Program-made: the position numbers
In this document: piece by piece, positions 51,001 to 56,230 of the stretch
Position numbering within the stretch: the first letter of the stretch is position 1
How the letters are laid out: every line of letters starts with the position of its first letter
From: Escherichia coli
GTDB lineage: Bacteria > Pseudomonadota > Gammaproteobacteria > Enterobacterales > Enterobacteriaceae
Assembly: GCF_016026235.1 (NCBI RefSeq)
Contig: NZ_CP065613.1
Reading direction: 5' to 3' (one strand)
DNA length: 64,000 bases

Positions 51001-54000
51001 CGCACGATCGCGATGTCCGCGTCCGGCGTCGTCCAGATCGTACTCGAGGGTCACTGGCGAACGCATAGCCTGCGCAACGGCTTCCACCGCGGCTTCCGCC
51101 TGTAAAGCTCGCCCAAGGTTGGTATGCAGCACGGTTCCCGTCAGGTTGATCACCGGACGCAGCGCACTCTGCGCCTCTTTCGTCAACCGGGCATCGACTT
51201 CTTGCGCCCAGTTTTCACACCACGCAGGCAGCGTCTGGCTGCCACGAATCACTTCTCGCGCTTCGTCGAGCATCTGACGCAACAATTCCACCACGCGGGT
51301 GTGACCATAAGTATCACGCAAAGAAAGGAAGGAGCTATCGCGCAATAAGCGATCAATAGCCGGAAGTTGACTATAGAGGGAACGCGTTTCGGTTGTCATA
51401 GGAAACCTGGCTGATCAAGGCCCTCTCACACGGAGAAGGGCGTTTAACATAACCACGGATTGTAACGTGAGATGGGTCAGGAGGACATATCGCGCATCAA
51501 GCCTTTGGCGGTTCGGTGCGAGCAAAACTTTCGCGGCTAAACAGGTTTTCGACCAGTTTGACTAAGTGTGGGCGGTCGACACACCAACCTGGCGCAACGC
51601 GGCGGAAATTGAGATATCCGACGGCACAGGCAATAGCGATAGTCGCCAGATTGACCGTATCGGTTTTGAGTGTGCCATCGACCAGATATCCTTCCAGCAC
51701 ATCCAGACTGCGGTTGATTTTCTCCCGCTGGCGTAACAATTCATCTTCAGACTGCTGCGCCGCTGGACGCGCCTGTTCACGCACCGATACCAGCCCAGCA
51801 TCCATAATGCCATCCGCCAGTGCCTCAATTTTGCGCACCCGCAACGACTCCAGCGGATCGCGCGGCAACATCGCCGGAGCGACATTCATTAATTCAATAT
51901 ATTCAGCGATGATCGGCGAATCAAACCAGCATTCGCCCTCTTCGGTCACCAGCACCGGCACTTTTCCTAACGGGTTAAATTGCGCCACGCCGTTGTCCGC
52001 GTTATAGGGCAGTTCATTAATAAATTCGAAAGTTATGCCCTTTTCTAACAACAGAATAGAAAGTTTGCGTACAAACGGGCTGGTGTAGCTACCGACGAGT
52101 TTCATGCCGAGTCCTTTGTGCGAGGAAAAATATCAGTATGGCTCAGGCTCACGCAAAACACAGGTGATATAAGTCTCAATGATCCAAATAAAGATAATGC
52201 ATCCAGCTGGTCATTCTTAGCAGCACTTTTCGCATCACCGAAACATGGCTGAAATGGTCGGAGTAAACTGCCACCTGGGCGTAAATGCCGTCGGGTAAGG
52301 CATCGATATCATCGTTAGGGTCCAGTTCAATGGTTCCCAGCACACCGTCCGTGCCGGGCACGACCGTTAATGATTGCAATACCCCCTGCGCCTGATAAGA
52401 ACCGCCTGGCACGACAGGTAAAATACTGGTCAGTTTGCCGTGGAACACCTGCCCAGGTAGCGCGTTAAACACCACTTCCGCATCATCGCCAGGTTTCAGA
52501 CGTAACAGCGAGTTTTGCCGAAATTGGGCGACAATTTGCCGTTTTTGCTCGGGGATGAAGACCATCACCGGACGCAGCGGCAAGGCAGCGGCGTATGTGC
52601 CTGGGCGGATCAGTACCTGAGTGACGTAGCCATTGCTCGGTGCGCGAATGACGGTCTGTTCAAGGTTATATTTTGCTTCTGTAAGTTGCGCTCTTAAGCT
52701 CACAATCTGCGATTGCTCGCCGTTAACCATACTGTCGAGCTGGCTCTGGATCTGCGCCTGCTCCGCCACCGAGCCTTTCACCAGCGCATCCTGCGCGAGG
52801 AAATTTTGCCGCGCATCGTCGATGTCACGTTCCGAGAACGGATTCACCGCCGCCTGGCTGCCTTTCAGATAACGTTGATAATTTTTAAACAGACGGTCGC
52901 GCTCCGCTGAAACCTGGGTGGTGTTGGCCTGCGCTTCAGTGAGCTGCGCGCGCAGCGTCTTTATATTATGCGTCGCCGTCATCAGGTCAGCCTGAAGTCT
53001 GTCAACTCGCGCCTGGTAACGAACCGGGTCGAGCTTAAAAAGCACCTCGCCCTTTTGAATAAGCTGATTATTCTTGTCAGTGACTTCAGTAACAATTCCC
53101 GTCACCTGTGGCGTGATGGGGATCGCTATCACAGCCTTTTGCGCGGTAAAAGTGTAAGGGTGGTTGTAGTTCATCAACAAAATCAAACCACTCACCAGAA
53201 ACACGCCTCCCAGCGCCGCCGTCGCCAGCGTCCACTGATTCACCGGAATACGAAAGATTTTAAAGACCGCCCACGCCAGCGCCACATAAGTTAAAACAAT
53301 CAATAGATCCATAATTAGATCTCCGGGAACGTGGAATAGTCAGTCTTTTTCTCGGCGGCGAGTTGGTGCTCCAGCCGGGAAATTCGGTCAGAAAGTGCGG
53401 CGATTTCCGGGTCAGTCGCTTTCTCCTGCGACGCAACATGTGACTGCATACCCCAGCCACGCTCCGGTTGATAGAGCGTCGCCCAGATCCACAGAAACGG
53501 CCAGATAACATGCAGAGTAAACAGGCTCACCCAGCCCGCCGTATGAATAGCGTCGGCATGGGGATGGTTGCGCTTTTTGGCAATCAGATAAGGGATGTCA
53601 TGTATCGCGATGATTCCATAAAAAATCACCAGAAAGACGAAGATCAGCACTCCCAACGCGAAATAGTTTAGAAACATATTTGCCTCGGATTCACGTTTAT
53701 CAGTGTTGTTTTTTGGCTGGCAGCCAGAAGGGAGTCAGGCTGATATTTTGACAATAATCCGGGTTCGCGATTCTCGCCATAACACCAAAGAATAATTTTT
53801 AGAGGTGATGAGTTGCTTAGTTACATAACGATTGTATGACGAAGGCATAACATGCTGTAGATCACATCAGGTGAACGCCGTAAGAAAATATCTTGTGATT
53901 CAGATCACAAAGATTCAACAAACCATCAAAACAAAAATGTGACATTAGTCACATTTAAATGCCATTTTTAGCGAAAATCGCCGCCTTGTGGCTTTTTTAC

Positions 54001-56230
54001 ACAAGCGTTTTGTGATGAACATCACGCCAATTACCTCTCTACCCCCTATATTTATGTGATTGATATCACACAAAAGGCCGTCGACTGGACAGTTAACCGA
54101 TTCAGTGCCAGATTTCGCAGTATCTACAAGGTCCGGCTACCTCTGCCGCCACATTAACAAAAAACCTCGGGCTTCCAGCCTGCGCGACAGCAAACATAAG
54201 AAGGGGTGTTTTTATGTCATCCGATATTAAGATCAAAGTGCAAAGCTTTGGTCGTTTCCTCAGCAACATGGTGATGCCAAATATCGGCGCGTTTATCGCG
54301 TGGGGTATCATCACCGCGTTATTTATTCCAACAGGGTGGTTACCGAACGAGACGCTGGCGAAGCTGGTCGGGCCGATGATCACTTATCTCCTGCCGCTGC
54401 TGATCGGTTATACCGGTGGTAAGCTGGTAGGCGGCGAACGTGGCGGCGTAGTCGGTGCCATCACCACCATGGGCGTTATCGTCGGCGCAGACATGCCGAT
54501 GTTCCTCGGTTCTATGATTGCAGGTCCGCTGGGCGGCTGGTGCATTAAGCACTTCGACCGCTGGGTAGACGGTAAGATCAAATCCGGTTTTGAGATGCTG
54601 GTGAACAACTTCTCCGCAGGCATCATCGGGATGATCCTCGCCATTCTGGCATTTCTCGGCATTGGCCCGATTGTTGAAGCCCTGTCCAAAATGCTGGCTG
54701 CGGGCGTTAACTTCATGGTTGTCCATGACATGCTGCCGCTGGCGTCTATCTTTGTTGAACCGGCGAAAATCCTGTTCCTCAACAACGCCATTAACCACGG
54801 TATCTTCTCGCCGCTGGGTATTCAGCAGTCCCATGAACTGGGTAAATCCATATTCTTCCTGATTGAAGCTAACCCAGGTCCGGGTATGGGGGTGCTGCTG
54901 GCGTACATGTTCTTTGGTCGTGGTAGCGCTAAACAGTCTGCGGGCGGTGCGGCAATTATCCACTTCCTGGGTGGTATCCACGAAATTTACTTCCCGTATG
55001 TGTTGATGAATCCGCGTCTGATCCTGGCCGTTATCCTCGGCGGTATGACTGGCGTGTTCACGCTGACTATCCTGGGCGGTGGTCTGGTTTCTCCGGCATC
55101 TCCGGGTTCTATCCTTGCTGTACTGGCGATGACACCAAAAGGTGCTTATTTCGCTAACATCGCGGGTGTGTGTGCGGCGATGGCTGTCTCCTTTGTTGTC
55201 TCTGCTATTTTGCTGAAAACCAGCAAAGTGAAAGAAGAAGATGATATTGAAGCAGCAACTCGTCGTATGCAGGACATGAAAGCTGAGTCTAAAGGTGCAT
55301 CTCCGCTGTCTGCGGGCGATGTGACTAACGACCTGAGCCACGTACGTAAAATCATCGTTGCCTGTGACGCCGGTATGGGTTCAAGTGCGATGGGCGCAGG
55401 CGTGCTGCGTAAGAAAATTCAGGATGCAGGTCTGTCGCAGATTTCTGTTACTAACAGCGCGATCAACAACCTGCCGCCAGATGTGGACCTCGTCATCACT
55501 CACCGTGACCTGACCGAACGCGCTATGCGCCAGGTTCCGCAGGCACAGCATATTTCGCTGACCAACTTCCTCGACAGCGGCCTGTACACCAGCCTGACCG
55601 AACGTCTGGTTGCTGCCCAGCGCCATACTGAAAACGAAGTGAAAGTGAAAGTGAAAGACAGCTTTGACGATTCCAGTGCTAACCTGTTCAAACTGGGCGC
55701 GGAGAACATCTTCCTCGGTCGCAAAGCTGCCACCAAAGAAGAAGCGATTCGTTTTGCTGGCGAGCAGTTGGTGAAAGGCGGTTACGTTGAGCCGGAATAC
55801 GTTCAGGCGATGCTGGATCGTGAAAAACTGACCCCGACTTATCTGGGTGAGTCTATCGCGGTGCCACACGGTACGGTTGAAGCGAAAGATCGCGTACTGA
55901 AAACGGGCGTGGTGTTCTGCCAGTACCCGGAAGGCGTGCGCTTCGGTGAAGAAGAAGATGACATTGCCCGTCTGGTGATTGGTATTGCTGCCCGTAACAA
56001 CGAGCACATTCAGGTTATCACCAGCCTGACCAATGCACTGGATGATGAGTCCGTCATCGAGCGTCTGGCACACACCACCAGCGTGGATGAAGTGCTGGAA
56101 CTGCTGGCAGCTCGTAAGTAATCCAATCCCACCCTCTCCACATGGAGAAGGTGGGGTTAATTGCCTGATGCGCTTCGCTTATCAGGCCTACAAAACAAAG
56201 CGCAGTTTGTTGAATTTGCACGTTCTTGTA

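What the first reader, a model, noticed from the sequence alone, without database searches (positions are those of the whole stretch)
53894..54070. Cluster of four near-consensus CRP sites upstream of mtlA
Three perfect and one 9/10 TGTGA-N6-TCACA sites lie within 180 bp, consistent with the unusually CRP-rich mannitol promoter. Useful as an internal positive control for motif calling in this window.
Basis: partly seen in the sequence, partly recalled or inferred. Interest (0 to 1): 0.25.

Follow-up and report, generated by a model that had tools for sequence, protein, structure and literature searches.

The report
Known CRP site cluster of mtlA
The four near-perfect CRP sites are real and are exactly sites CRP2 to CRP5 of the well-studied E. 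coli mannitol operon control region, so this is ordinary, already-explained biology that works well as a positive control.

Summary
The only three perfect TGTGA-N6-TCACA matches in the 64-kb window lie at 53894, 53938 and 54055. A 9/10 match lies at 54011. About 0.07 perfect matches are expected by chance in the whole window.

The window is E. coli. The yibI-mtlA intergenic region aligns without gaps to K-12 MG1655, with 8 differences in 539 bp and none in a core base.

The site centres are 44, 73 and 44 bp apart. This matches published sites CRP2-CRP5, centred at -219.5, -175.5, -102.5 and -58.5 from the mapped start site (Lee et al., NAR 2026). It scores at noise level and is reported to be dispensable.

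In that published model, cAMP-CRP at CRP2-5 activates mtlADR. The repressor MtlR has no DNA-binding domain and docks on two CRP dimers 43-46 bp apart. Dephosphorylated EII-Mtl removes it when mannitol is present.

My own survey of 120 mtlA loci found the 44 / 72-74 / 44 layout in 41 of 42 Enterobacterales. Aeromonas has 45/73/44. In the Enterobacterales alignment the half-sites are 90-100% conserved and the N6 spacers 40-60%.

Verdict: already known, low interest. The minor extras are two conserved non-CRP motifs and the conserved 73-bp gap.

The parts
53851..53866 (.). CRP1: weak fifth CRP site, CATGCTGTAGATCACA, 7/10 core bases, centred at -262.5 and 43 bp upstream of CRP2.
   Evidence: Position derived from the published centres on the gap-free K-12 alignment. 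Matrix score is 9.0, rank 9 in the window, which is noise level. Reported mostly unoccupied and dispensable. Only moderately conserved across genera.
53894..53909 (.). CRP2: perfect core, TGTGATTCAGATCACA, centred at -219.5.
   Evidence: Half-sites are 90-100% conserved in 45 Enterobacterales sequences. Reported essential for mtl expression.
53938..53953 (.). CRP3: perfect core, TGTGACATTAGTCACA, centred at -175.5 and 44 bp from CRP2. The N6 spacer differs from K-12 at two bases.
   Evidence: A CRP3 mutant shows a slight reduction in expression.
54011..54026 (.). CRP4: 9/10 core, TGTGATGAACATCACG, centred at -102.5 and 73 bp from CRP3.
   Evidence: Reported essential. One spacer base and one flanking base differ from K-12.
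54055..54070 (.). CRP5: perfect core, TGTGATTGATATCACA, centred at -58.5 and 44 bp from CRP4. This is the promoter-proximal site.
   Evidence: Reported essential. Its distance to the extended -10 TG is fixed at 41.5-43.5 bp across Enterobacterales and Aeromonas.
54086..54091 (+). Inferred -35 hexamer, TGGACA.
   Evidence: Placed by a 17-bp spacing from the -10 and by the TSS implied by the published site centres. CTGGACAG is conserved in Enterobacteriaceae. This is an inference. The simple promoter scan did not call it.
54106..54114 (+). Inferred extended -10, TG-c-CAGATT.
   Evidence: TG and hexamer positions 2, 4 and 6 are invariant in 45 Enterobacterales sequences. The position fits a TSS at 54121.
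54121..54213 (+). mtlA 5' untranslated leader of about 93 nt. The TSS at 54121 is inferred from the CRP5 centre at -58.5.
   Evidence: The TSS was S1-mapped in K-12. No Rfam family matches in 53600-54400.
54214..56121 (+). mtlA, the mannitol PTS enzyme IICBA. It is 635 aa, with a 2-aa in-frame deletion relative to K-12 near residue 480.
56351..57499 (+). mtlD, mannitol-1-phosphate 5-dehydrogenase.
   Evidence: Coordinates come from the K-12 gene length.
57499..58086 (+). mtlR, the repressor that docks on paired CRP dimers. It is identical in sequence to K-12 MtlR.
   Evidence: Mechanism.
53917..53922 (.). AACAAA: conserved non-CRP motif in the CRP2-CRP3 spacer, function unknown.
   Evidence: Four of the six bases are invariant and two are 80-90% conserved in Enterobacterales, while neighbouring columns are about 40-50% conserved. 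It is absent from the CRP4-CRP5 spacer.
53986..54004 (.). TTGTGGCTTTTTTACACAA: a T-tract flanked by TGT/ACA in the 73-bp CRP3-CRP4 gap, function unknown.
   Evidence: 70-88% conserved across Enterobacterales. K-12 has T instead of G at 53990.

Best explanation
The four sites are CRP2, CRP3, CRP4 and CRP5 of the mtlADR operator-promoter of E. coli. This is a multi-site (class III) CRP-dependent control region. When cAMP is high, cAMP-CRP dimers occupy the sites. The proximal CRP5 at -58.5 helps recruit RNA polymerase to a weak extended -10 promoter with its start at about 54121. The upstream sites CRP2 and CRP4 are also needed, probably for an architectural reason, and CRP3 contributes less. 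The sites form two pairs, CRP2-3 and CRP4-5, each with centres 44 bp apart. This spacing lets a dimer of the repressor MtlR, which has no DNA-binding domain, bridge two DNA-bound CRP dimers and shut the operon off. When mannitol is transported, dephosphorylated EII-Mtl (MtlA) holds MtlR at the membrane and the operon is expressed. Dephosphorylated HPr, present when glucose is available, competes MtlR off EII-Mtl and restores repression. Shown here: the sequence, position, spacing and conservation of the sites. Taken from the literature on K-12: CRP binding, MtlR docking and the phenotypes of site mutants. Inferred: that the same holds in this strain, and the exact -35/-10 assignment.
For: - The sites are real and far beyond chance.
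- The window is E. coli with the order yibH-yibI / mtlA-mtlD-mtlR.
- The gap-free alignment to K-12 has 8 differences in 539 bp, none in the 40 core bases of CRP2-5.
- The centres 53901.5, 53945.5, 54018.5 and 54062.5 reproduce the published spacings of 44/73/44. They also place CRP1 on a 7/10 match, as published.
- EMSA, spacing-variant and chromosomal site-mutant data in K-12 are reported in PMC13421365.
- MtlR here is identical to K-12 MtlR.
- Independent comparative evidence comes from 120 mtlA loci drawn without regard to CRP sites.
  - 41 of 42 Enterobacterales have four sites at 44 / 72-74 / 44. Edwardsiella has 44/63/44. Aeromonas has 45/73/44. Orbales keep one 43-44 bp pair. Firmicutes have none.
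  - Sites with at most 1 mismatch occur at 9.6 per kb upstream of mtlA, against 0.012 per kb in the rest of the same loci.
  - Half-sites are 90-100% conserved while the N6 spacers are 40-60% conserved.
  - An mtlR homologue follows mtlA-mtlD in every gammaproteobacterial locus long enough to tell, and in none of the Gram-positive or actinobacterial loci.
  - The cluster stays at a fixed distance from mtlA and from the extended -10 even where the upstream neighbour is not yibI.
Against: - No binding or expression data exist for this strain.
- The N6 spacers of CRP3 and CRP4, one flanking base of CRP4 and one base of the gap element differ from K-12. These could alter affinities slightly.
- CRP5 at -58.5 is 3 bp off the canonical class I position of -61.5 (my knowledge of CRP promoters). 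How it activates is not settled.
- The paper itself leaves open why the far-upstream sites are essential.
- The MtlR-on-CRP model rests on one recent paper, whose structural part is predicted rather than solved.
- The original 1995 site-mapping paper could not be read.
Confidence: 0.93

Rival explanations
1. The cluster mainly serves the divergent yibI-yibH promoter, or serves both directions, rather than mtlA alone.
For: The sites lie in a 536-bp divergent intergenic region. The CRP2 centre is about 224 bp from the yibI start codon. No yibI transcription start is known to me.
Against: A yibI-like gene lies upstream only in Escherichia, Citrobacter and a few close genera. The four-site layout keeps the same distance to mtlA and to its extended -10 in about 30 genera with other neighbours. 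Mutating single sites abolishes mtlD expression and growth on mannitol.
Confidence: 0.05
2. The sites are plain activator sites. MtlR represses by some other route, such as direct DNA binding at a separate operator or through another DNA-binding partner.
For: Two conserved non-CRP motifs sit in the operator, AACAAA at 53917-53922 and the T-tract element at 53986-54004. They could be sites for another factor. The MtlR-CRP structure is a prediction.
Against: MtlR alone does not shift the operator but supershifts CRP-DNA. The supershift needs two occupied sites 43-46 bp apart and can be transplanted to malK by changing a spacing from 34 to 44 bp. Pairs spaced 43-45 bp co-occur with mtlR across Gammaproteobacteria in my survey.
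Confidence: 0.04
3. The matches are a chance or repeat-derived cluster of palindromes with no regulatory role.
For: None beyond the fact that short palindromes occur by chance. The terminator scan picks up the CRP3 palindrome as a hairpin.
Against: Three perfect matches were found where 0.07 are expected in the whole window. The scores exceed all shuffles. Core-specific conservation holds across an entire bacterial order. Published binding and mutant data exist.
Confidence: 0.002

Closest known systems
E. coli K-12 mtlADR operator with five CRP sites (Ramseier and Saier 1995, as cited; Lee et al., Nucleic Acids Res 2026, PMC13421365)
   Same: This is the same locus, with the same gene order and the same five sites at the same positions and spacings of 43/44/73/44. 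The core bases are identical, MtlR is identical, and the alignment is gap-free.
   Different: There are 8 single-base differences across the 539-bp intergenic alignment. Five lie in or beside the cluster: two in the CRP3 spacer, one in the CRP4 spacer, one flanking CRP4 and one in the gap element at 53990. MtlA has a 2-aa linker deletion.
CytR-CRP repression complex at deoP2 and other CytR-regulon promoters
   Same: A repressor is held between two DNA-bound CRP dimers and turns an activator scaffold into a repression complex. The paper draws this comparison itself.
   Different: CytR has its own DNA-binding domain and operator contacts. MtlR has none and reads only the CRP-CRP geometry. From my own knowledge, not tested here, the deoP2 CRP sites are about 53 bp apart rather than 44.
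malK (malEp-malKp) multi-CRP regulatory region
   Same: Several CRP sites (four) are clustered upstream of a sugar-uptake operon.
   Different: Adjacent sites are 34 bp apart and MtlR does not dock there. Stretching the spacing to 44 bp creates MtlR binding.
Remote CRP activation at the pap operon (site at -215)
   Same: A far-upstream CRP site is needed for activation in a way that depends on helical phase. The paper offers this as a precedent for CRP2-4.
   Different: pap uses a single distant site together with other factors. The mtl operator uses two 44-bp pairs separated by a conserved gap of about 73 bp.

Membership tests
CRP (cAMP receptor protein) binding site | Two-fold symmetric core TGTGA-N6-TCACA within a 22-bp site | tested here: met
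   Three sites match 10/10 and one matches 9/10. Their matrix scores of 18.6-24.1 exceed all shuffles.
CRP (cAMP receptor protein) binding site | cAMP-dependent binding of CRP protein to the DNA | not testable with these tools
   Shown for the K-12 operator by EMSA in PMC13421365. The core bases here are identical.
CRP (cAMP receptor protein) binding site | Selective conservation of the half-sites relative to the spacer and flanks in orthologous regions | tested here: met
   Half-sites are 90-100% conserved and N6 spacers 40-60% in 45 Enterobacterales sequences.
mtlADR operator sites CRP2-CRP5 of E. coli | Location upstream of mtlA in an mtlA-mtlD-mtlR operon | tested here: met
mtlADR operator sites CRP2-CRP5 of E. 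coli | Centres at -219.5, -175.5, -102.5 and -58.5 from the mapped TSS, spaced 44/73/44 | tested here: met
   The centres 53901.5, 53945.5, 54018.5 and 54062.5 lie on a gap-free alignment to K-12. The implied TSS at 54121 sits 7 nt after a conserved extended -10.
mtlADR operator sites CRP2-CRP5 of E. coli | A fifth, weak site (CRP1, 7/10) lies 43 bp upstream of CRP2 | tested here: met
   53851-53866, CATGCTGTAGATCACA, 7/10. This matches the published description.
MtlR-recruiting CRP pair (MtlR-CRP-DNA repression complex) | Two adjacent CRP sites with centres 43-46 bp apart | tested here: met
   CRP2-3 and CRP4-5 are both 44 bp apart, and CRP1-2 is 43 bp.
MtlR-recruiting CRP pair (MtlR-CRP-DNA repression complex) | An intact MtlR of the E. 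coli type encoded in the operon | tested here: met
   MtlR is 195 aa with no differences from K-12.
MtlR-recruiting CRP pair (MtlR-CRP-DNA repression complex) | Formation of the ternary MtlR-CRP-DNA complex and repression in vivo | not testable with these tools
   Reported for K-12 and Salmonella. Here it is inferred from sequence identity.
Class III CRP-dependent promoter | Two or more CRP sites contribute to activation of one promoter | tested here: inconclusive
   Multiple conserved sites upstream of one promoter are shown here. Their individual contributions are known only from K-12 mutants.

The most novel reading that the evidence does not exclude
Across Enterobacterales and Aeromonas, three things are conserved besides the 44-bp pairs. 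One is the distance of about 73 bp (7 helical turns) between the two pairs, which is 63 bp in Edwardsiella, one turn fewer. The others are two non-CRP motifs: AACAAA in the CRP2-3 spacer, and a TGT-T7-ACAC element in the gap. The most novel reading is that these mark a fixed higher-order architecture. That could be both CRP pairs held on one face of a bent or looped DNA, or a site for an additional unidentified factor. It would explain why the far-upstream sites CRP2-4 are essential for activation, a question the 2026 paper leaves open.
Probability: 0.3. Interest if true: 0.35.

Novelty: already known. Interest (0 to 1): 0.12.

Why it matters
This finding matters mainly as a calibration point. 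The four strongest CRP-type matches in the window are true, experimentally characterised sites. The weak fifth site (CRP1) and other plausible CRP targets in the window (xylA 5' region, bax-malS) sit at or below the noise level of consensus or matrix scans (CRP1 and bax-malS scored; the xylA site seen only as a 2-mismatch consensus hit). This shows what such scans can and cannot recover. Biologically the cluster is the scaffold of an unusual repression mechanism, in which a repressor without a DNA-binding domain reads the spacing of two activator dimers. My cross-species survey extends the published four-species comparison of operator architecture to about 80 gammaproteobacterial species. It adds the conserved 73-bp inter-pair distance and two conserved spacer motifs as testable details.

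Tried and rejected
- **Promoter scan.** The simple sigma-70 scan did not find the mtlA promoter, because its -10 (CAGATT) matches only 3/6. Its single hit, on the minus strand inside the mtlA start region, is no better than the shuffles. I placed the promoter from the published site centres and from conservation instead.
- **Terminator-like hits.** The three hits are rejected as terminators. One is the CRP3 palindrome itself. One (53980-53992) loses pairing in K-12. The third has a weak 5-bp stem.
- **Rfam.** An Rfam search of 53600-54400 found nothing, so there is no known RNA element in the leader.
- **Primary papers.** The primary papers (Ramseier and Saier 1995; Figge et al. 1994) are not held. 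The mapping therefore rests on the 2026 paper's restatement.
- **The 53986-54004 element as a sixth CRP site.** I considered this and rejected it. It fits the core only with a 7-bp spacer (about 6/10), and the N6 register gives 4/10.
- **Cra operator.** I considered GTTAACCGATTCAGT (54091-54105), between -35 and -10, as the Cra operator. This rests only on my memory of the Cra consensus, and the register is not kept in Citrobacter or Enterobacter. I do not claim it.
- **The match at 30571.** A 1-mismatch core match at 30571 scores only 5.2 with the matrix and is treated as chance.
- **Not done.** I did not survey within-species variation beyond K-12 and E. albertii, because conservation across the order already answers that question.
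Full report
**1. The observation**

A search for TGTGA-N6-TCACA finds exactly three perfect matches in the 64,000-base window: 53894-53909, 53938-53953 and 54055-54070. 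Dinucleotide-preserving shuffles give a mean of 0.07, and none of 100 shuffles reached three.

Allowing one mismatch adds 54011-54026 (TGTGATGAACATCACG) and one unrelated hit at 30571. At two mismatches the bare consensus no longer discriminates, with 33 hits against about 26 expected.

All four sites fall within 177 bp. By my arithmetic from the rate, three perfect sites in one such stretch has a chance probability of order 1e-9.

**2. Where this is**

The 701 bases around the sites match 5,404 of 5,426 complete E. coli genomes at 95-100% identity, always over mtlA. The local gene order is:
- yibH (52176-53312, minus strand)
- yibI (53315-53677, minus strand)
- a 536-bp intergenic region
- mtlA (54214-56121)
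- mtlD (56351-57499)
- mtlR (57499-58086)

MtlA is 99% identical to the K-12 protein, with a 2-residue in-frame deletion near residue 480. MtlR is identical to K-12.

The whole yibI-mtlA intergenic region aligns to K-12 MG1655 without a single gap. There are 8 substitutions in 539 columns. Five of them lie in or beside the site cluster:
- two in the N6 spacer of the second site
- one in the spacer of the third site
- one just 3' of the third site
- one in a T-rich element between the sites

None touches a core base.

**3. Comparison with the mapped sites**

A 2026 paper (Lee et al., Nucleic Acids Res, PMC13421365) restates the five CRP sites of the K-12 mtl operator. It centres them at -262.5, -219.5, -175.5, -102.5 and -58.5 from the S1-mapped start, with spacings of 43, 44, 73 and 44 bp.

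The four sites here are centred at 53901.5, 53945.5, 54018.5 and 54062.5, which gives spacings of 44, 73 and 44. Setting the last centre to -58.5 puts the start at 54121. It also places CRP1 at 53851-53866, CATGCTGTAGATCACA, a 7/10 match, exactly as the paper describes CRP1.

That is understandable, because with a weight matrix CRP1 scores 9.0 and ranks ninth in the window, at the level of shuffled sequence. It is reported to be largely unoccupied and dispensable.

**4. The promoter**

Seven bases upstream of the implied start lies CAGATT (54109-54114), preceded by TG at 54106-54107. TGGACA (54086-54091) sits 17 bp further upstream.

In an alignment of 45 Enterobacterales sequences, the TG and hexamer positions 2, 4 and 6 are invariant. 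This looks like a weak extended -10 promoter, which fits its dependence on an activator. The assignment is my inference. The generic promoter scan does not call it.

No Rfam family matches the 93-nt leader.

**5. Independent comparative test**

To sample mtlA upstream regions without bias toward CRP sites, I scanned one genome per species for a degenerate coding pattern of the MtlA N-terminus (NMVMPNIGAFIAWG). This returned 120 loci. I then scanned the 400-500 bp upstream of each start codon for core matches with at most 2 mismatches.

| Group | Loci | Site layout |
|---|---|---|
| Enterobacterales (27 genera) | 42 | 41 have four sites at 44 / 72-74 / 44; Edwardsiella hoshinae has 44 / 63 / 44 |
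| Aeromonadales | 8 | 45/73/44 in 6 (all Aeromonas); 45/73/43 and 52/45/73 in the two Zobellella |
| Orbales | 7 | One pair 44 (once 43) bp apart |
| Pasteurellales | 2 | Three perfect sites at 40 + 44 |
| Vibrionales | 15 | A proximal 43-44 bp pair in most, with variable distal sites |
| Streptococcus, lactobacilli | - | No cluster of sites; at most a single 2-mismatch match |

Further results from the same loci:
- Sites with at most one mismatch occur at 9.6 per kb upstream of mtlA in Enterobacterales, against 0.012 per kb in the rest of the same loci.
- In the alignment the half-site columns are 90-100% conserved, while the N6 spacers are 40-60% conserved. This is the signature of a protein-binding site.
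- An MtlR homologue lies 3.1-3.4 kb downstream of the mtlA start in every gammaproteobacterial locus long enough to tell. None of the Gram-positive or actinobacterial loci has one.
- A yibI-like neighbour is present only in Escherichia, Citrobacter and a few close genera. Yet the cluster keeps its distance to mtlA everywhere.
- The CRP5 centre lies 41.5-43.5 bp from the extended -10 TG in all Enterobacterales and Aeromonas.

The cluster therefore belongs to mtlA, not to yibI.

**6. How it works**

The best-supported account comes from the K-12 literature and applies here by sequence identity. cAMP-CRP is required for mtl transcription. Scrambling CRP2, CRP4 or CRP5 abolishes mtlD expression and growth on mannitol. 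Scrambling CRP3 has a mild effect and scrambling CRP1 has none.

MtlR has no DNA-binding domain and does not bind the operator alone. It supershifts CRP-DNA only when two sites 43-46 bp apart are both occupied. Binding is best at 44-45 bp. It can be created at malK by stretching a 34-bp spacing to 44 bp.

With mannitol, dephosphorylated EII-Mtl sequesters MtlR at the membrane. Dephosphorylated HPr competes for the same surface and restores repression when glucose is present.

Several points remain open, according to the authors. One is why the far-upstream sites are essential; looping and anti-silencing are offered as possibilities. Another is how MtlR blocks activation. My conservation data support the functional importance of both 44-bp pairs and of their co-occurrence with mtlR.

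**7. Rivals**

- **A chance cluster.** This is excluded by the statistics and by core-specific conservation.
- **A role for the divergent yibIH genes.** This cannot be excluded as an addition, but it cannot be the main role, because the cluster persists where yibI is absent.
- **An MtlR route independent of CRP.** This is contradicted by the published spacing experiments and fits poorly with the phylogenetic co-occurrence of 43-45 bp pairs with mtlR.

**8. What is not in the literature I could read**

The paper examined operator architecture in four other species. My survey extends this to about 80 gammaproteobacterial species and shows three further regularities.

First, the distance between the two pairs is itself conserved. 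It is 73 bp, about seven helical turns. The one exception is exactly one turn shorter (63 bp).

Second, AACAAA (53917-53922) is nearly invariant in the CRP2-3 spacer of Enterobacterales and absent from the CRP4-5 spacer.

Third, a TGT-N3-T7-ACAC element (53986-54004) in the 73-bp gap is 70-88% conserved.

These point to a fixed higher-order geometry or an extra factor. I rate that reading at about 0.3. Even if true, it would be a refinement of a known system.

**9. Verdict**

It is a good internal positive control. Interest is low.

Noticed in passing
window 53917-53922: AACAAA in the CRP2-CRP3 spacer is nearly invariant across 42-45 Enterobacterales sequences, while neighbouring columns are about 40-50% conserved. 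It is absent from the equivalent CRP4-CRP5 spacer. An A-rich block (AAAATAT, 53885-53891) just upstream of CRP2 is also 80-90% conserved.
   Followed up: partly
window 53986-54004: TTGTGGCTTTTTTACACAA is a T-tract flanked by TGT/ACA inside the 73-bp CRP3-CRP4 gap. It is 70-88% conserved in Enterobacterales. K-12 carries T instead of G at 53990. It may be an intrinsic bend or a site for Fis or another factor. This was not tested.
   Followed up: partly
L108 (Edwardsiella hoshinae), upstream of mtlA; compare window 53945-54019: The distance between the two CRP pairs is 73 bp (72-74) in 41 of 42 Enterobacterales and in all 8 Aeromonadales. It is 63 bp in Edwardsiella, one helical turn less, which suggests a constraint on helical phase.
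   Followed up: partly
window about 55645-55660 (mtlA codons about 478-482): MtlA is 635 aa rather than 637. It has a 2-residue in-frame deletion plus three nearby substitutions in the linker between the IIB and IIA domains, relative to K-12.
   Followed up: partly
L008, L012, L033, L040, L063, L066, L087, L098, L102, L110, L113 (Mycobacterium/Mycolicibacterium): The mtlA-like genes of mycobacteria carry a single 1-mismatch TGTGA-N6-TCACA site about 30-45 bp upstream of the predicted start codon. Such sites occur at 1.1 per kb upstream against 0.02 per kb elsewhere in the non-gammaproteobacterial loci. This is possibly a site for mycobacterial CRP.
   Followed up: no
L041 (Actinobacillus sp.), L116 (Cricetibacter), upstream of mtlA: These Pasteurellales have three perfect CRP cores spaced 40 and 44 bp apart. 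This layout differs from the enterobacterial two-pair arrangement.
   Followed up: no
window 16167-16182: CGTGAAACAAATCACT is the fifth-best CRP matrix score in the window (17.0, equal to the best shuffle). It lies in a region that matches the hokA / IS1 neighbourhood in other E. coli strains.
   Followed up: partly
window 32132-32147 and 32249-32264: Two CRP-like matches with 2 mismatches (matrix scores 13.1 and 8.0) lie in the bax-malS intergenic region. They are not separable from chance by score.
   Followed up: partly
window 25852-25885: Two core matches with 2 mismatches lie 18 bp apart, including TGTGCGCTCGCTCGCA, at the 5' end or upstream of xylA. From memory this resembles the known xylA/xylF CRP site. 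I did not verify this.
   Followed up: partly
hit H20 (E. coli GPEC1054, NZ_CM142793.1), corresponding to window about 53878: In this strain the match to the mtl control region breaks at query base 179 and continues as a second place. This suggests an insertion or rearrangement between CRP1 and CRP2.
   Followed up: no
window about 32450-53700, compared with L122 (E. coli FDAARGOS_943): The window has about 5.5 kb more DNA between malS and mtlA than its closest hit at the mtl locus. In that strain an IS1 is flanked by truncated genes, which looks like an IS1-associated deletion there.
   Followed up: no
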